Assembly (NCBI GenBank): GCA_041665625.1
Contig: JBAYIK010000001.1
Span: forward strand, 134,587-194,340
From: Minisyncoccota bacterium
GTDB taxonomy: Bacteria; Patescibacteriota; Minisyncoccia; Phycocordibacterales; XYD1-FULL-46-19
Length of the DNA: 59,754 nucleotides
Reading direction: 5' to 3'
The notes under the pieces are model-generated. The model did not search any database. It saw nothing but the letters and a program-made list of their open reading frames with translations, and was not told where the DNA came from. A program made the translations under genes and the position numbers. Positions 8,932 through 46,936 of the stretch are shown here, piece by piece. How positions within the stretch are numbered: position 1 is the stretch's first letter; every line of letters starts with the position of its first letter.

Positions 8932-8942
8932 TCTCCCTAAAA

Positions 8943-8987
8943 CCCCCGCCGAACCTTGGGCTCACTTAAGGTTCGGCGGGGGTTTTT
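8943..8987 (+). terminator. intrinsic terminator
   Basis: 15-bp stem CCCCCGCCGAACCTT / AAGGTTCGGCGGGGG followed by TTTTT. Confidence 0.85.
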
Positions 8988-9026
8988 GCTTGGCGGGTTT
9001 TTCTTATTACTGTATAATAATCATTA

Positions 9027-12330: not shown

Positions 12331-12340
12331 ACATAGAAAA

Positions 12341-12392
12341 CCCTTATTTGTCGAAGTCCAACTTCGTAAACATTACAAAAGTGGGGATAAGT
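12341..12392 (+). repeat. REP-like hairpin repeat, copy 1
   Basis: CCCTTATTTGTCGAAGTCCAACTTCGTAAA plus tail ...GTGGGGATAAGT; core has two mismatches to the other three copies; CGAAGT/ACTTCG stem. Confidence 0.8.
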
Positions 12393-22400: not shown

Positions 22401-22453
22401 CACTTATCCCCAGTTTTACATAGTTTACGAAGTTGGACTTCGCAAAATAAGGG
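22401..22453 (-). repeat. REP-like hairpin repeat, copy 2 (inverted, left of transposase)
   Basis: Reverse complement reads CCCTTATTTTGCGAAGTCCAACTTCGTAAACTATGTAAAACTGGGGATAAGTG. Confidence 0.85.
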
Positions 22454-22476
22454 TTTTATGATAAAGTGACGTGAAT

Positions 22477-23142
22477 ATGAGGGAAAAGCCTACCGAAGAT
22501 TACATTTATCATGTCTATAATCGCGGAGTAGACAAACGTGATATTTTTAACAATGATAGCGACAGGCGTCGTTTCTTAGCTTGTCTCCATTGTTTTAATG
22601 ACACTAATCAAGCAAGAAACACTGACTATGAAGAGTCTATAAAAAATGATGGCCGAGAAAAACTGGTAGAGATCCTCGCTTTTGTTTTAATGCCTAATCA
22701 CTATCATCTACTTGTTAAACCACTAGTAGAAAACGGGGTCTCAGAATTTATGAGAAAGATAGGAACTGGATATACTCATTATTTTAATATCCAGAACGAG
22801 AGGTCAGGAACTTTATTTCAAGGTAAATATAAATTCGTCAGAATTGAAGATGATGAGCAACTGAATTACATTCCTTTTTATATCCACTTTAACCCAGCTG
22901 AGCTCGTTGAAGAAAAATGGAAAGATAAAGAAATAAGGGACAAAAAAAGACTTTTAGATTTCTTAAAATCTTACGAATGGTCAAGTCTCCCTGTCTATCT
23001 GGGAAAATCTCGTTTCTCAAACATTGTCGATAAAAACATTCTCGATGACTACCTAGGAACCCCTGGGGAGTTGGAAAAGGAGGTAGAAGAGTGGATAGAA
23101 GAAATCGATTCACAAAACTATACAAATTTGTGGATAGAGTAG
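22477..23142 (+). CDS. IS200-like / REP-associated tyrosine transposase (RAYT-type, COG1943-like)
   Basis: YHVYNRGVDKRDIF, HUH motif LMPNHYHLLV, GYTHYFN...GTLFQGKYK. Confidence 0.75.
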   Translation: MREKPTEDYIYHVYNRGVDKRDIFNNDSDRRRFLACLHCFNDTNQARNTDYEESIKNDGREKLVEILAFVLMPNHYHLLVKPLVENGVSEFMRKIGTGYTHYFNIQNERSGTLFQGKYKFVRIEDDEQLNYIPFYIHFNPAELVEEKWKDKEIRDKKRLLDFLKSYEWSSLPVYLGKSRFSNIVDKNILDDYLGTPGELEKEVEEWIEEIDSQNYTNLWIE

Positions 23143-23150
23143 CCAAAATA

Positions 23151-23180
23151 CCCTTATTTTGCGAAGTCCAACTTCGTAAA
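23151..23180 (+). repeat. REP-like hairpin repeat, copy 3 (right of transposase)
   Basis: CCCTTATTTTGCGAAGTCCAACTTCGTAAA, identical to the reverse complement of 22424-22453. Confidence 0.85.
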
Positions 23181-25798: not shown

Positions 25799-25834
25799 CG
25801 AGATTGGATCTCGCGTAGCCAGATCCAACCTCGG
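25799..25834 (-). repeat. GC-rich hairpin repeat (family 2), intergenic copy
   Basis: Reverse complement CCGAGGTTGGATCTGGCTACGCGAGATCCAATCTCG matches 31078-31113 inside pyrD at 33 of 35 positions. Confidence 0.8.
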
Positions 25835-25849
25835 GAACCTACCCCAAAC

Positions 25850-25890
25850 AAAAACCAGCCGTTGGTGCGCATGCGCACCAACGGCTGTGG
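25850..25890 (-). terminator. intrinsic terminator (T-run on minus strand)
   Basis: 15-bp stem CAGCCGTTGGTGCGC / GCGCACCAACGGCTG; A-run on + side gives the U-tract for minus gene 25913-26581. Confidence 0.75.
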
Positions 25891-30522: not shown

Positions 30523-30637
30523 ATGGATCCCGTTAGAAGTTTTACTATCTAAGGGTATGAGTATTAACTTTACGGTTATAGATAAAAATAAAAGGTCTGA
30601 AATTATGTATAAATTAATGAACTTCTAACGGGATGGA
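30523..30637 (+). repeat. long palindromic element abutting the pyrD start codon (family 3, copy 1)
   Basis: ATGGATCCCGTTAGAAG ... CTTCTAACGGGATGGA; 13-bp arms about 80 nt apart; 3' arm ends at position -1 of ATG 30633. Confidence 0.8.
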
Positions 30638-31859
30638 GGCTTGGACTAAACTTAGAAACGATGTAATTGGTTGGAATTACCGGAACATCCTTAAGCCAAT
30701 ACTCTTCAAATTTGATCCTGAAGATATACACGATTTATTCGTTAAGGTCGGGAATTTTCTCGGCCGGGCCTCTCTTCCCCGTTATTTAACTGGGGTTCTT
30801 TTTGATTATGAGAATCCAGCACTCGAACAGGAAATTCTGGGCATCAAATTCAAGAACCCGATTGGGCTCTCGGCGGGCTTCGATAAGAACGCAAAATTAA
30901 CTCAGATTATCTCGAAGGTCGGTTTTGGCTTCACCGAGATTGGTTCGGTGACCGGCCGTCCCTGCAAGGGTAACGAGGGGCGACACTTGTGGCGCTTGCC
31001 TAAATCCGAGAGTTTGATTGTTTATTATGGTCTGACGAATGATGGGGCAGAAAATATTGCTAATAGGCTGGGGGCTACCGAGATTGGATCTGGCTACGCG
31101 AGATCCAATCGCTTCCGCCCCCAGGGCAACTTCGTTCTAGGCGTCAGCCTTGCCAAAACCAACGACCGCGAAACAACGACGACCGAAGCGGGGATTGAAG
31201 ATTATATCAAAGCCTATGAAGCCTTCCTTAAAACTGAGGTGGGAGATTATTTTACCATCAATATCAGTTGTCCCAACACCTTCGGTGGCGAACCTTTTGT
31301 CGAACCAGAACGCTTAGACTTGTTACTATTCGCTTTTGCCAAAGTTAGAGATGGCCAATCTGGCCGAGGACTAGCCTCGGTCAAAACTAGACCTCTTTTT
31401 GTTAAACTCCCGCCAGACCTAAGCGACGAGAAATTAGATGCGATTATCGAGCTAGTTAAGAAATACAAAATCAACGGCTTCGTCTCGACTAATTTAACCA
31501 AAGATAGAAATAATCCTCTTATCAAAGATAAAATTAAAGATCCCTTGCCGACAGACAAAGGGGGATTATCGGGCAAAATTGTCGAGGAATTAGCGACCAA
31601 ACAAATTGAATATATTTATAAAAAAATAAAAGATTTGCCTCAGACAGAGAGACCAATCATCATCGGTTGTGGAGGAATCTTCACCGCCGAAGATGCTTAT
31701 AACAAAATCAAAGCTGGCGCCTCACTTCTCCAGCTCATCACCGGGATGATCTTCGAAGGACCCCAAGTCATTAGCGAAATCAACCAAGGCCTTGTCGCCC
31801 TGCTCCAAAAAGATGGGTATAAAAATATAAGTGAAGCGGTAGGTAAAAATAATTTATAA
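30633..31859 (+). CDS. pyrD: dihydroorotate dehydrogenase (class 2-like) with a palindrome-encoded 19-aa insert
   Basis: PIGLSAGFDKNA, FTEIGSVT, INISCPNT, GGLSG, IIGCGGI. Confidence 0.85.
   Translation: MEAWTKLRNDVIGWNYRNILKPILFKFDPEDIHDLFVKVGNFLGRASLPRYLTGVLFDYENPALEQEILGIKFKNPIGLSAGFDKNAKLTQIISKVGFGFTEIGSVTGRPCKGNEGRHLWRLPKSESLIVYYGLTNDGAENIANRLGATEIGSGYARSNRFRPQGNFVLGVSLAKTNDRETTTTEAGIEDYIKAYEAFLKTEVGDYFTINISCPNTFGGEPFVEPERLDLLLFAFAKVRDGQSGRGLASVKTRPLFVKLPPDLSDEKLDAIIELVKKYKINGFVSTNLTKDRNNPLIKDKIKDPLPTDKGGLSGKIVEELATKQIEYIYKKIKDLPQTERPIIIGCGGIFTAEDAYNKIKAGASLLQLITGMIFEGPQVISEINQGLVALLQKDGYKNISEAVGKNNL
31068..31124 (+). repeat. GC-rich palindromic element (family 2) in frame within pyrD
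   Basis: CTGGGGGC-TACCGAG-ATTGGATCT-GGCTACGCG-AGATCCAAT-CGCTTCC-GCCCCCAG; 57 nt = 19 codons. Confidence 0.75.
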
Positions 31860-45494: not shown

Positions 45495-46880
45495 ATGGAC
45501 AGAATATATATCAACACAATTAAGGAACATGTCGGCAAAGAAATCAGCATCTACGGCTGGGTAGACATTCGTCGTGACCACGGCAAATTAATCTTTATTG
45601 ATTTGCGAGACGTTACCGGCAAAGTTCAGATGGTCATCCTCCCGAACCATGAGGAAGCCTATAAAGTGGCTCAGGATTTGCGACCAGAGTGGGTCGTTAA
45701 GATTACCGGTCTCGTTAATCAACGCCCCGAAAAAATGATTAATAAGGAACAAGAAAATGGCGATTTAGAAATTGAGGTCACGGGGATCGAAGTTATTAAC
45801 AAATCAGAAACCCCACCCTTCCTAATCAACGAGGATACTAGTGGGGTCAACGAAGAACTTCGTCTTAAATATCGCTATCTAGATCTACGTAGCGAACGCA
45901 TGCGCAAGAATATTGTCCTACGTGACAAGGTTATCACTTTCTTCCGCAACCATATGCACGAGAATAATTTTATTGAGATAGAGACGCCAATTATGATGAA
46001 GGGAACACCTGAGGGATCACGTGAATATTTGGTACCTTCACGTCTTGAGCACGGCAAATTCTATGTCCTACCTCAGTCACCTCAGCAATTCAAACAACTC
46101 TCCATGGTCGCCGGCTTCGACCGCTACTTCCAAATTGCACGCTGCTTCCGTGATGAAGACCAAAGAGGTGACCGCCAACCTGAATTTACTCAACTCGACT
46201 TCGAGATGTCCTTCGTTAACCAAGAAGATGTTTTACAATACACTGAGAAAATGTTTATCGAGTTAGTAACAAAAATGTTCCCTGAGAAAAAATTAACTCA
46301 AGTTCCTTTTCCTCGTCTTACTTATAAAGAATCTGTCGAGAGATATGGTAGCGACAAGCCCGACTTAAGAAATAATAAAGAAGACAATAATGAATTGGCC
46401 TTTGCCTGGATTATTGACTTCCCAATGTTTGAAAAAGATAAGGAAGGTAATATTAATGCCGCCCATCACCCCTTCTGCTCAATCCACGAAGAAGACATGC
46501 CTAAATTTATGGCAGGAGAAGACCTCTTCAATATCCGGGCTAATTCTTATGACATGGTTTTAAATGGTTTTGAATTAAGCTCAGGAAGTATTCGTATCCA
46601 TCAAGCCGACGTTCAACAGAAAGTTTTCGATCTTCTTGGAATTAGTAAGGAGGAACAGAAACTTCGTTTCGGACATATGATTGAGGCTTTTCAATTCGGT
46701 GCCCCTCCACACGGCGGTTTTGCTCCTGGTATTGATCGTATTGTGATGCTCTTAGCTGGTGAGCCAAATATTCGCGAAGTCATCGCCTTTCCTAAGAACG
46801 GCGAGGCTAAAGACCTAATGATGGGTGCTCCTTCAGATGTCTCCGACAAACAACTAAAAGAGTTGGGGATCAAAATCTAA
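45495..46880 (+). CDS. aspS: aspartyl-tRNA synthetase, bacterial-type sequence lacking the GAD insertion domain
   Basis: LPQSPQQFKQL, motif 2 FRDEDQRGDRQPEFTQLD, motif 3 GGFAPGIDRIVML; SDKPDLRNNKEDNNELAFAWIIDFPMFE joins the two halves directly. Confidence 0.9.
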   Translation: MDRIYINTIKEHVGKEISIYGWVDIRRDHGKLIFIDLRDVTGKVQMVILPNHEEAYKVAQDLRPEWVVKITGLVNQRPEKMINKEQENGDLEIEVTGIEVINKSETPPFLINEDTSGVNEELRLKYRYLDLRSERMRKNIVLRDKVITFFRNHMHENNFIEIETPIMMKGTPEGSREYLVPSRLEHGKFYVLPQSPQQFKQLSMVAGFDRYFQIARCFRDEDQRGDRQPEFTQLDFEMSFVNQEDVLQYTEKMFIELVTKMFPEKKLTQVPFPRLTYKESVERYGSDKPDLRNNKEDNNELAFAWIIDFPMFEKDKEGNINAAHHPFCSIHEEDMPKFMAGEDLFNIRANSYDMVLNGFELSSGSIRIHQADVQQKVFDLLGISKEEQKLRFGHMIEAFQFGAPPHGGFAPGIDRIVMLLAGEPNIREVIAFPKNGEAKDLMMGAPSDVSDKQLKELGIKI

Positions 46881-46884
46881 AAAA

Positions 46885-46936
46885 CCTTATTTTGCGAAGT
46901 CCAACTTCGTAAACTATGTAAAAATGTGGCTAAAAG
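46885..46936 (+). repeat. REP-like hairpin repeat, copy 4
   Basis: CCTTATTTTGCGAAGTCCAACTTCGTAAACTATGTAAAAATGTGGCTAAAAG directly after the aspS stop. Confidence 0.85.

What the first reader, a model, noticed from the sequence alone, without database searches (positions are those of the whole stretch)
31068..31124. GC-rich palindromic repeat inserted in frame in pyrD, with a near-identical intergenic copy after dnaK
Seen: pyrD contains a 57-nt nested palindrome (CTGGGGG/CCCCCAG outside, ATTGGATCT/AGATCCAAT inside). It encodes part of LGATEIGSGYARSNRFRPQG. Its core, CCGAGATTGGATCTGGCTACGCGAGATCCAATC, matches the reverse complement of 25799-25834 (just after the dnaK stop) at 33 of 35 positions. 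The length is exactly 19 codons. From memory of E. coli PyrD, the site lies between NRL and the GxxLGVxxxKN strand, where the linker is only a few residues. Established: Rickettsia palindromic elements are the classic mobile palindromes that insert in frame into genes. Inference: this is an RPE-like event in a different lineage.
Basis: partly seen in the sequence, partly recalled or inferred. Interest (0 to 1): 0.65.

Follow-up and report, generated by a model that had tools for sequence, protein, structure and literature searches.

The report
Transposase-linked hairpin repeat translated inside pyrD
A short hairpin-forming DNA repeat sits in frame inside the essential pyrD gene of an ultra-small (CPR/Patescibacteria) bacterium and is read through as a floppy surface loop; it belongs to a repeat family whose stems match the hairpins that bracket a REP-type (RAYT-like) transposase gene 8 kb upstream.

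Summary
Window 31068-31124 is a 57-nt nested palindrome covering pyrD codons L146-Q164. Its core matches the reverse complement of 25800-25834, just after the dnaK stop, at 33 of 35 positions. The genome holds four copies. The 16-nt apex ATCTGGCTACGCGAGA occurs 3-8 times in seven of nine same-genus genomes and in none of 32 other genera. About two thirds of copies lie in frame inside housekeeping genes, in both orientations, and never in the one frame with a stop. Relatives outside the genus have a 3-4-residue linker at this PyrD site. Six of eight genus members carry different palindromes there. AlphaFold models the insert as the only disordered stretch of PyrD. Three independent metagenome runs contain it.

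The RPE-like reading holds as behaviour, but the closest known system is REP/REPIN-RAYT. A single-copy, syntenic HUH/Y1 gene (22471-23142) has E. coli TnpA-REP as its best structural match. It is bracketed by inverted hairpins whose stems recur in the dispersed repeats. Mobilisation by this enzyme is inferred, not shown. I class it as a new variant of a known kind. I found no paper describing it in Patescibacteria, although this scan has noted it repeatedly.

The parts
31068..31124 (+). 57-nt nested palindrome inside pyrD, covering codons L146-Q164. Outer stem CTGGGGG/CCCCCAG, inner hairpin, 9-nt apex.
   Evidence: AlphaFold gives pLDDT below 50 only for residues 152-165.
31080..31112 (+). 33-nt core, GAGAT-TGG-ATCT / GGCTACGCG / AGAT-CCA-ATCGC. 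It reads as two inverted small hairpin units around a 9-nt spacer, a REPIN-like doublet. It is a stem variant of the genus consensus GAAGTCG[G/C]ATCTGGCTACGCGAGA[T/A]ACGACTTC.
30633..31859 (+). pyrD, class-2 dihydroorotate dehydrogenase, 408 aa. It is intact and keeps all invariant family residues.
   Evidence: Pfam DHO_dh 8e-60. PDB DHODH hits at 7e-53. Alignment invariants. AF2 mean pLDDT 91.5.
25800..25834 (-). Second copy of the same stem variant. It is intergenic, 8 nt after the dnaK stop, and lies upstream of the terminator (25856-25887) of the convergent gene.
22471..23142 (+). RAYT-like HUH/Y1 transposase-family gene (223 aa). HUH motif NHYHLL; Tyr motif YIHFNP. Proposed mobilising enzyme.
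   Evidence: PF01797 39 bits, above the cut-off of 23. NCBIfam REP_Tyr_transpos 46 bits, below the cut-off of 80. Motifs align to 4ER8. Foldseek top hit 4ER8, E 1e-4, TMt 0.65. Syntenic orthologues across the genus.
22424..22457 (.). Left terminal inverted repeat of the RAYT-like gene, with small hairpin CGAAGT-TGG-ACTTCG.
23145..23180 (.). Right terminal inverted repeat of the RAYT-like gene (hairpin CGAAGT-CCA-ACTTCG). It is the reverse complement of the left end.
12337..12370 (.). Solo intergenic copy of the RAYT terminal repeat (CCCTTATTTGTCGAAGTCCAACTTCGTAAA).
46879..46913 (.). Solo intergenic copy of the RAYT terminal repeat.
8937..8988 (.). Terminator-like 21-bp hairpin whose apex is the 10-nt loop GGGCTCACTT of a sister repeat family ('family B').

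Best explanation
The pyrD insert is one copy of a small, non-autonomous hairpin repeat of the REP/REPIN kind.

Anatomy. The pyrD copy reads as two inverted 12-13-nt mini-hairpin units (GAGAT-TGG-ATCT and AGAT-CCA-ATC) around a 9-nt spacer. This doublet is nested inside a copy-specific outer stem.

Proposed mechanism (inferred). The repeat family is mobilised, or at least maintained, through single-stranded hairpin DNA by the single-copy RAYT-like HUH/Y1 enzyme encoded 8 kb upstream at 22471-23142. That gene is itself bracketed by an inverted pair of such mini-hairpins.

Why copies sit in genes. About 91% of this 0.85-Mb genome is coding, so most new copies land inside genes. Only copies that keep the frame, avoid the one stop-containing frame and hit a permissive surface loop survive. 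They are then translated.

The pyrD copy. It adds about 13-16 residues as a disordered loop between helix 139-153 and strand 168-173 of an otherwise intact TIM-barrel enzyme. The PyrD linker is a permissive hot spot where hairpins have been gained, flipped in place and replaced repeatedly within the genus.

Shown versus inferred. Shown here: repeat family membership, lineage-specific in-frame insertion, translation-compatible frames, hairpin covariation, the RAYT-like fold with its flanking hairpins, and the shared stems. Inferred: that this enzyme actually cuts and moves these hairpins.

Confidence. About 0.85 that this is a selfish or mobile hairpin repeat tolerated as a protein loop. About 0.55 that the RAYT-like enzyme is its mobiliser.
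For: Copy number and distribution
- There are four copies in the genome. The 16-mer apex occurs 3-8 times in 7 of 9 genus genomes. It is absent from 32 other genera, and reversed-pattern controls give 0.
- A covariance model finds 17-37 hits (both strands counted) in 8 of 9 genus genomes (G006 only 3, G001 none), and only 1-2 in two genomes outside the genus.

Hairpin structure
- In 36 copies, 76.9% of cells are paired, against 29-41% in slid controls. 18 of 25 pairs show changes on both sides. 0 of 500 shuffles reach the observed score.
- The pyrD/dnaK variant differs from the consensus by three fully compensatory pair changes.

Coding context
- 24 copies lie in open frames of at least 180 aa. 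They use 5 of the 6 frames, 16 in the same orientation as the gene and 8 opposite, and never the frame with TAG.

Insertion rather than native sequence
- PyrD alignment and codon-level DNA show the insert is lineage-specific.
- A Dus-like gene gives a clean filled/empty pair with a net 42-nt gain.

Protein and data quality
- AF2 mean pLDDT is 91.5. The only segment below 50 is residues 152-165.
- Three independent runs contain the insert.

Link to the RAYT-like gene
- PF01797 scores above its cut-off. HUH and Tyr motifs align to E. coli TnpA-REP. The Foldseek top hit is 4ER8.
- All 13 family genes examined are flanked by an inverted hairpin pair: 8 genus orthologues, 4 genes from other genera, and the G000 paralogue.
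- The flank stems are GAAGT-N3-ACTTC in G000, G002, G007 and G008, and GAGAT-TGG-ATATC in G003-G005. These are the stems of the dispersed repeats.
- An unbiased 5-N3-5 census of G000 puts AAGGA (19 observed vs 0.6 expected) and GAAGT (14 vs 2.0) on top among non-AT hairpins. These are exactly the hairpins flanking the two RAYT-like genes.
- An enriched small hairpin is present in 5 of 6 RAYT-positive genomes and 0 of 5 RAYT-negative genomes, Fisher p = 0.015.

Conservation
- At orthologous sites the core is 128/132 identical, while the flanks are about 75% identical (binomial P = 5e-12).
Against: - No transposition event, empty-site read or excision joint was seen. The run data are contigs only, which cannot show absence.
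- The exact family-A apex (GGCTACGCG) is not present at the RAYT flanks. Only the stems are shared.
- Both stem types co-occur in genomes whose RAYT carries just one of them.
- NCBIfam's RAYT model scores below its cut-off, 46 vs 80 bits.
- The canonical 5' GTAG tag of REPs is not at the foot of the hairpin.
- The consensus family-A arms (GAAGTCGGATCT) are not themselves self-complementary, so only the pyrD/dnaK variant reads cleanly as a REP doublet.
- The copy-specific outer stems, in-place flips and apex swaps are not explained by simple cut-and-paste.
- RAYT-like genes occur in 19 of 33 genera, many without this family. The phyletic test uses only 11 genomes.
Confidence: 0.7

Rival explanations
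1. The hairpins arise and spread without any transposase. Replication template-switching at quasi-palindromes (fold-back copying) and gene conversion between hairpins would create, extend, flip and homogenise palindromes. On this reading the neighbouring RAYT-like gene is a bystander.
For: - Nearly every copy has an outer stem of unrelated, copy-specific sequence.
- At the PyrD linker, G007 carries a full core with almost no net length gain, which looks like replacement rather than insertion.
- Copies at orthologous sites in polA and pyrD are flipped in place.
- Arms and loop can be inverted relative to one another.
- At one Dus site the same stems carry an A-type apex in one species and a B-type apex in another.
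Against: - Template switching within a locus cannot place the same 33-nt sequence at 30 or more unlinked loci. Some copying between loci is required.
- It leaves unexplained why the over-represented mini-hairpins are exactly those bracketing the two Y1 genes.
- It leaves unexplained why they are enriched only in RAYT-positive genomes.
- It may well act as a secondary process on inserted copies.
Confidence: 0.15
2. The conserved apex is a functional RNA element, such as a binding site for a protein or RNase, or an mRNA-stability or 3'-end hairpin. It would be kept by selection, and its presence in coding regions would be regulatory.
For: - The 16-nt apex is invariant across species whose flanking coding DNA is only about 75% identical.
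- There is strong stem covariation.
- Several copies sit right after stop codons, after dnaK in G000 and after pyrD in G007.
Against: - The apex is asymmetric, yet copies lie in both orientations relative to transcription. The 16:8 split fits a random 3:2 expectation once the stop-containing frame is excluded.
- Orthologous copies are flipped between species.
- The host genes are functionally unrelated.
- No Rfam family matches at gathering score anywhere in the window.
- Covariation is equally expected for a DNA hairpin.
Confidence: 0.1
3. The 19 residues are a native, ancestral PyrD loop, or the palindrome is an assembly artefact.
For: - Human DHODH has a 13-residue linker at this site, so the site is naturally variable.
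- The first two codons of the palindrome are native.
Against: - Ten outgroup CPR orthologues and two genus members have a 3-4-residue linker.
- Genus members carry different, unrelated palindromes at the site.
- The same core occurs at three other loci in the genome.
- Three independent runs contain it unchanged.
Confidence: 0.03

Closest known systems
REP / REPIN elements with RAYT (TnpA-REP) transposases of Proteobacteria (E. coli RayT/YafM, PDB 4ER8; Pseudomonas fluorescens REPINs; Bertels & Rainey, PMC3116915, PMC3337134)
   Same: - Short imperfect palindromes are repeated around the genome.
- Doublets of inverted units form a long hairpin.
- A single-copy, vertically inherited HUH/Y1 gene is bracketed by its cognate hairpins.
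- Two distinct RAYT-like genes in one genome each have their own hairpin type.
- The best structural match of the enzyme is TnpA-REP bound to a REP hairpin.
   Different: - The elements are far smaller: a 33-nt core against roughly 90-110-nt Pseudomonas REPINs (recalled from memory).
- There is no GTAG at the foot of the hairpin.
- The enzyme is about 225 aa with an extra C-terminal region and falls below NCBIfam's RAYT cut-off.
- Copy numbers are tens, not hundreds.
- About two thirds of copies are intragenic and translated.
- Copies carry copy-specific outer stems and interchangeable apex modules.
Rickettsia palindromic elements (RPE; Ogata et al. 2000, as summarised in PMC10969869 and PMC3733652)
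   Same: - Palindromic repeat families are inserted in frame in unrelated housekeeping genes of a reduced genome.
- They are read through as extra peptide segments compatible with protein fold and function.
   Different: - RPEs are about 150 bp, carry a CGTC end tag and have no known dedicated transposase.
- There is no sequence similarity, and the phylum differs.
- Here the inserts are 11-19 codons and are linked to a candidate enzyme.
Intragenic REPs and 'TIRtrons' (RAYT-like genes flanked by long terminal inverted repeats with moderately abundant solo TIR families; Di Nocera et al. 2013, PMC3733652)
   Same: - That paper reports REPs inside genes in several species, many in replication and repair genes. 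Here polA is one host.
- It also reports Y1 genes flanked by TIRs that form small dispersed families. Here 34-36-nt TIRs flank the gene, with at least 3 solo copies.
   Different: - That survey lists Proteobacteria, Cyanobacteria, Chloroflexi, PVC and others among the GTAG-repeat hosts in the passage I read. I found no mention of Patescibacteria.
- Intragenic copies were the exception there and are the majority here.
Very small nested dispersed repeats of cyanobacteria (Elhai et al. 2008; recalled from memory, not read here)
   Same: Tiny palindromic units that insert inside one another and inside genes.
   Different: No linked transposase was proposed there.

Membership tests
REP/REPIN-RAYT system | Short (20-40 nt) imperfect palindrome repeated at many loci of the genome | tested here: met
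   The 33-nt core has 4 copies in G000 and 3-8 exact-apex copies per sister genome. The covariance model finds 17-37 hits in 8 of 9 genus genomes (G006 only 3, G001 none).
REP/REPIN-RAYT system | [quoted passage not shown] | tested here: met
   The pyrD and dnaK copies read GAGAT-TGG-ATCT / 9-nt spacer / AGAT-CCA-ATC(TC), and fold with z = -4.7 and -5.1. The consensus family-A arms are not self-complementary, so this holds for this variant and for family B, but not strictly for all copies.
REP/REPIN-RAYT system | Conserved GTAG tetranucleotide at one end (foot) of the REP (PMC3733652) | tested here: not met
   GTAG occurs only inside the 9-nt apex on the reverse strand (CGCGTAGCC), not at the foot. 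The RAYT-flanking hairpins have no adjacent GTAG.
REP/REPIN-RAYT system | Genome encodes a RAYT: an IS200-like Y1 enzyme with HUH and catalytic Tyr motifs | tested here: inconclusive
   PF01797 scores 39 bits against a cut-off of 23. The HUH motif (NHYHLL) and YIHFNP align to 4ER8. The Foldseek top hit is 4ER8, E 1e-4, ahead of IS608 and ISDra2 TnpA. However, NCBIfam REP_Tyr_transpos scores only 46 bits against a cut-off of 80.
REP/REPIN-RAYT system | RAYT gene flanked by its cognate repeats, with a specific RAYT-repeat pairing | tested here: met
   All 13 genes examined carry inverted flanking hairpins. The two G000 paralogues carry GAAGT-N3-ACTTC and AAGGA-N3-TCCTT respectively, which are the two most over-represented non-AT mini-hairpins of the genome. 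Caveat: the family-A apex itself is not at the flanks.
REP/REPIN-RAYT system | RAYT single-copy and vertically inherited | tested here: met
   One orthologue per genome (50-77% identity) was found in 8 of 9 genus members. It lies near pyrD wherever both genes are on one contig. The second G000 gene is only 39% identical.
REP/REPIN-RAYT system | Extragenic location | tested here: not met
   24 of about 33 family-A copies lie in long open frames. Intragenic REPs are, however, on record (PMC3733652).
REP/REPIN-RAYT system | The enzyme binds and cleaves the single-stranded hairpin | not testable with these tools
   Needs biochemistry.
Rickettsia palindromic elements (RPE) | About 150-bp palindromic repeat families of Rickettsia with a CGTC end tag | tested here: not met
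   The element is 33-57 nt and contains no CGTC or GACG. The organism is Patescibacteria (PMC10969869, PMC3733652).
Rickettsia palindromic elements (RPE) | In-frame insertion into unrelated functional genes, compatible with the protein fold | tested here: met
   Hosts include pyrD, polA and a Dus-like gene. The insert is the only low-confidence loop of a confident PyrD model.
MITE (TIR plus target-site duplication) | Direct target-site duplication flanking the element | tested here: inconclusive
   No direct repeat is visible at the clean filled/empty Dus site or at pyrD. Only one clean pair was available, and the two species are diverged.

The most novel reading that the evidence does not exclude
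The hairpins behave as 'Russian dolls'. New units would enter preferentially at the single-stranded apex of an existing hairpin. This would explain four observations:
- the conserved apex inside progressively older, copy-specific outer stems;
- the recurrent hot spots, such as the PyrD linker;
- the interchangeable A-type and B-type apex modules on identical stems;
- a nested insert seen inside a RAYT-flanking hairpin of G005.

On this reading the domesticated RAYT-like enzyme keeps the apex homogeneous across millions of years. That would make a REPIN-RAYT partnership living mainly inside coding sequence, and it would be a standing source of lineage-specific loops in essential Patescibacteria proteins.
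Probability: 0.3. Interest if true: 0.7.

Novelty: new variant of a known kind. Interest (0 to 1): 0.5.

Why it matters
Patescibacteria proteins and rRNAs are known for unexplained lineage-specific insertions. This locus gives a concrete source for some of them, with a candidate enzyme attached. Tiny transposase-linked hairpins have almost no intergenic DNA to occupy, so they persist in frame inside essential genes and are translated as surface loops.

It would extend the REPIN-RAYT paradigm, so far described mainly for Proteobacteria and for extragenic DNA, to a new phylum and a new niche. It also offers a simple in-vitro test. For annotation, such inserts should not be read as functional domains or as frameshift or assembly errors.

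Tried and rejected
- Rfam at gathering thresholds over the whole window gave no match. No known RNA family explains the hairpin.
- I looked in three public runs for an empty site or excision joint at pyrD. Only contigs were available. The joints listed are far from the insert and come from other organisms.
- The general count of long hairpins (stem at least 11-12) does not separate RAYT-positive from RAYT-negative genomes, because terminators dominate it. My 8-mer 'family' metric was too strict and was uninformative. Only the mini-hairpin census separates the two groups.
- I considered the GTAG inside the apex as the REP tag. I rejected it as evidence because it is in the wrong position and has about a 5% chance expectation.
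- I considered the model 'inverted duplication of the target flank at insertion' for the outer stems. At the one clean filled/empty site the short outer stem (CGTGC/GCACG) belongs to the semi-conserved element, not to the target. The model is therefore neither supported nor excluded.
- I did not attempt to orient copies relative to replication. The assembly has 17 contigs, and the loops flip.
Full report
**Observation**

The window is C1:134587-194340 of an 854-kb, 17-contig, 43% G+C genome. The nearest public relatives of its PyrD are labelled Patescibacteria/CPR, including Vogelbacteria, Nomurabacteria and Paceibacterota.

pyrD is the ORF 30633-31859, 408 aa. It matches Pfam DHO_dh at 8e-60 and class-2 DHODH structures at 7e-53.

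The stretch 31068-31124 reads CTGGGGGCTACC-GAGATTGGATCT-GGCTACGCG-AGATCCAATCGC-TTCCGCCCCCAG. It begins on a codon boundary and encodes L146-Q164. As single-stranded DNA it folds as a nested hairpin at -20.1 kcal/mol, z = -4.7.

Its core matches the reverse complement of 25800-25834, 8 nt after the dnaK stop, at 33 of 35 positions. Shuffled sequence gives no such match. Contigs of three independent public runs, from two groundwater studies and one lake, carry the palindrome unchanged. It is therefore not an assembly artefact.

**It is an insertion**

I aligned 18 PyrD orthologues from 41 related genomes.

- All ten from other genera, and two from the same genus, have a 3-4-residue linker between the helix ending in R-L-x-x and the strand (N/K)F-x-x-G-(I/V)-S.
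- G000 has 17 residues where its relative G005 has 4.
- The first two codons of the palindrome (Leu-Gly) are native, so the net gain is 13-16 codons rather than 19.

Six of the eight genus members that have pyrD carry a palindrome at this very linker, and the palindromes differ:

- G002 has the same stem variant in the opposite orientation.
- G003 and G007 have a compensatory variant (TACTT...AAGTC). In G007 there is almost no net length gain.
- G004 has two inverted copies of a different hairpin (GAAGTCCAACTTC-AAGTGAGCCC-GAAGTTGGACTTC).
- G008 has an unrelated palindrome.

A second PyrD site, around residue 240, is also hit in G002 and G004.

An AlphaFold model built on 42 sequences has mean pLDDT 91.5. 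Its only segment below 50 is residues 152-165, between helix 139-153 and strand 168-173. All invariant family residues are present. The insert is a tolerated, disordered surface loop of an intact enzyme.

**The repeat family**

The genome holds four copies sharing ATCTGGCTACGCGAGA: in pyrD, after dnaK, in polA (contig C4) and at an intergenic site, C1:209770. This 16-mer occurs 3-8 times in seven of nine same-genus genomes. It is absent from 32 other genera, and the reversed control gives zero hits.

The genus consensus is GAAGTCG[G/C]ATCTGGCTACGCGAGA[T/A]ACGACTTC. The pyrD and dnaK copies differ from it by three fully compensatory stem changes.

On 36 distinct copies my hairpin model pairs 76.9% of cells, against 29-41% when partners are slid. 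18 of 25 pairs change on both sides, and no shuffle out of 500 reaches the observed score. The outer columns carry copy-specific complementary sequences, so almost every copy has its own outer stem. This covariation is expected for a DNA hairpin as much as for an RNA one.

A covariance model finds 17-37 hits (both strands counted) in 8 of 9 genus genomes (G006 only 3, G001 none). Outside the genus it finds one hit in G010 and two weak hits in G034. The lower-scoring hits are a sister family with the same stems and a different 10-nt apex, AAGTGAGCCC.

**Coding context**

Twenty-four family-A copies lie within open frames of 180-819 aa. The hosts include PolA, PyrD, a Dus-like enzyme and a ComEC-like protein.

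They are read in five frames:

- EV(G/A)SGYAR..
- KSDLATRDTTS
- RSRIWLRE..
- EVVSRVARSDF
- RSR(I/F)SRSQ..

They are never read in the sixth frame, which contains TAG. Orientation relative to the gene is 16 same to 8 opposite. This fits random insertion filtered by the closed frame, which predicts 3:2.

At orthologous sites the element can be flipped in place, as in polA and pyrD of G000 versus G002. The loop can also be inverted relative to its arms. A Dus-like gene gives a clean filled (G002) versus empty (G005) pair, with a net 42-nt gain of CGTGC-core-GCACG. At a second site of the same gene, identical stems carry the A-type apex in G005 and a B-type apex in G002.

Across four orthologous pairs the 33-nt core is 128/132 identical while flanking coding DNA is about 75% identical (binomial P = 5e-12). 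The core is either constrained or continually homogenised.

**The candidate enzyme**

The genome encodes two Pfam Y1_Tnp (PF01797) proteins. One lies in the window at 22471-23142, 2.7 kb upstream of the dnaK copy and 8 kb upstream of pyrD.

- Its best NCBIfam model is 'REP-associated tyrosine transposase', at 46 bits, below the cut-off of 80.
- Its only marginal PDB sequence hit is E. coli TnpA-REP (4ER8), with NHYHLL aligned on the HUH motif and YIHFNP on the Tyr motif.
- Its AlphaFold model (pLDDT 85.7) has 4ER8, 'REP associated tyrosine transposase bound to a REP hairpin', as top Foldseek match (E 1e-4, TMt 0.65). IS608 and ISDra2 TnpA rank lower.
- An orthologue (50-77% identity) was found in 8 of 9 genus genomes. 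It lies next to pyrD wherever both genes are on one contig. Paralogues occur in 19 of 33 genera.
- More than 1,200 homologues, mostly from Paceibacterota-type genomes, are annotated only as 'transposase'.

Every one of the 13 family genes I inspected is bracketed by an inverted pair of mini-hairpins.

- In G000 these are 34-36-nt terminal inverted repeats at 22424-22457 and 23145-23180, with the hairpin CGAAGT-TGG-ACTTCG.
- Solo copies lie at 12337-12370, 46879-46913 and C1:260161.
- In G003, G004 and G005 the flanking hairpin is GCGAGAT-TGG-ATATCGC. This has the stem of the pyrD and dnaK copies.
- The G000 paralogue on contig C7 is flanked by CCAAGGA-CTC-TCCTTGG. This is the arm of a third dispersed family found in frame in tsaD, holB, pheT and prmC.

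An unbiased census of all 5-N3-5 mini-hairpins in G000 puts AAGGA (19 observed vs 0.6 expected) and GAAGT (14 vs 2.0) on top among non-AT-rich ones. These are the two RAYT-flanking types.

I also examined 80-200-kb samples of eleven genomes. A G/C-containing mini-hairpin is over-represented (6-13 copies) in five of six genomes with such a gene. It is over-represented in none of five without, where the maximum is 4. Fisher p = 0.015. This is a small sample.

**Interpretation**

The anatomy matches the published definition of REP/REPIN-RAYT systems: inverted REP doublets forming hairpins; a single-copy HUH/Y1 gene flanked by its own repeats; and one repeat type per RAYT (PMC3337134). It also matches the 'TIRtrons' and intragenic REPs described by Di Nocera et al. 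(PMC3733652).

It departs from those systems in several ways:

- the very small size of the elements;
- the absence of a GTAG foot;
- the predominance of in-frame intragenic copies;
- the nested architecture, with an invariant apex, semi-conserved inner stems and unique outer stems.

RPEs (about 150 bp, CGTC-tagged, no known enzyme; PMC10969869, PMC3733652) are a behavioural analogue, not a relative.

I therefore read the pyrD insert as a REPIN-like hairpin that landed in, or was rebuilt in, a permissive linker and is translated as a passenger loop. Mobilisation by the neighbouring RAYT-like enzyme is the most likely mechanism, but it rests on association, not on an observed event.

Template-switching at hairpins probably contributes to flips, outer stems and apex exchange. 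It is the main rival as sole cause. A strand-specific RNA function is unlikely given the random orientation.

**Novelty**

My full-text searches found no paper that treats RAYT or REPIN together with Patescibacteria or CPR.

Earlier AI notes of this scan describe the same kind of system in this genome (miaA and prmC copies; the RAYT unit at 22401-23180) and in many other Patescibacteria genomes. I reached the RAYT link from my own searches before reading the notes. They agree with my reading but are not independent evidence.

The finding is thus real and apparently unpublished for this phylum, but it is a variant of a known class of selfish DNA and one more instance within this scan.

Noticed in passing
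window 31352-31380: The second variable PyrD site (around residues 240-250) holds two adjacent mini-hairpins in G000, GGCCA-ATC-TGGCC and CCGAGG-ACTAG-CCTCGG. They encode GQSGRGLAS. In G002 the same site holds a canonical family-A copy, and in G004 a family-B copy. Model confidence dips there (block mean pLDDT 68).
   Followed up: partly
window 30527-30541 and 30620-34: A 15-nt perfect inverted repeat (ATCCCGTTAGAAGTT / AACTTCTAACGGGAT) brackets about 78 nt just upstream of, and touching, the pyrD start codon. It is also the subject of another first-reader note.
   Followed up: no
L136 (G005:C1), upstream flank of the RAYT-like gene: The RAYT-flanking hairpin GTGCGAGA...TTGGATATCGCAC carries a second palindrome (CCCGCCTGCC-TAGGCATTTC-GGGCAGG) nested in its loop. 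This is a direct example of a hairpin inserted within a hairpin.
   Followed up: partly
G000 contigs C1, C2, C3, C9 (outside the window): Sister families sit in frame in many housekeeping genes. The apex AAGTGAGCCC (peptide TSSEPEV and similar) is found in uvrC, comEC-like, miaA and prmC. The apex TTGAGAGGCCGCCCAAA on AAGGACT-TCCTT arms (peptide KDSPLG.SQGKS.G) is found in tsaD, holB, pheT, prmC and rnhB.
   Followed up: partly
window 8937-8988: A 21-bp terminator-like hairpin with A-run and T-run flanks has the family-B 10-nt loop GGGCTCACTT at its apex. This suggests either insertion into terminator loops or co-option of the repeat as a terminator.
   Followed up: no
G010:C6 about 86367 and G010:C7:6730-6785: A different genus of the same family carries a family-B copy inside a long ORF and one strong covariance-model hit (51.7 bits). 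The superfamily is therefore not strictly confined to the genus.
   Followed up: no
L139 (G006:C115): In G006 a copy of the flanking mini-hairpin (TGATTGAAGTCGAACTTCAATCA) lies inside the region matched by the RAYT-like protein itself, as well as after its stop.
   Followed up: no
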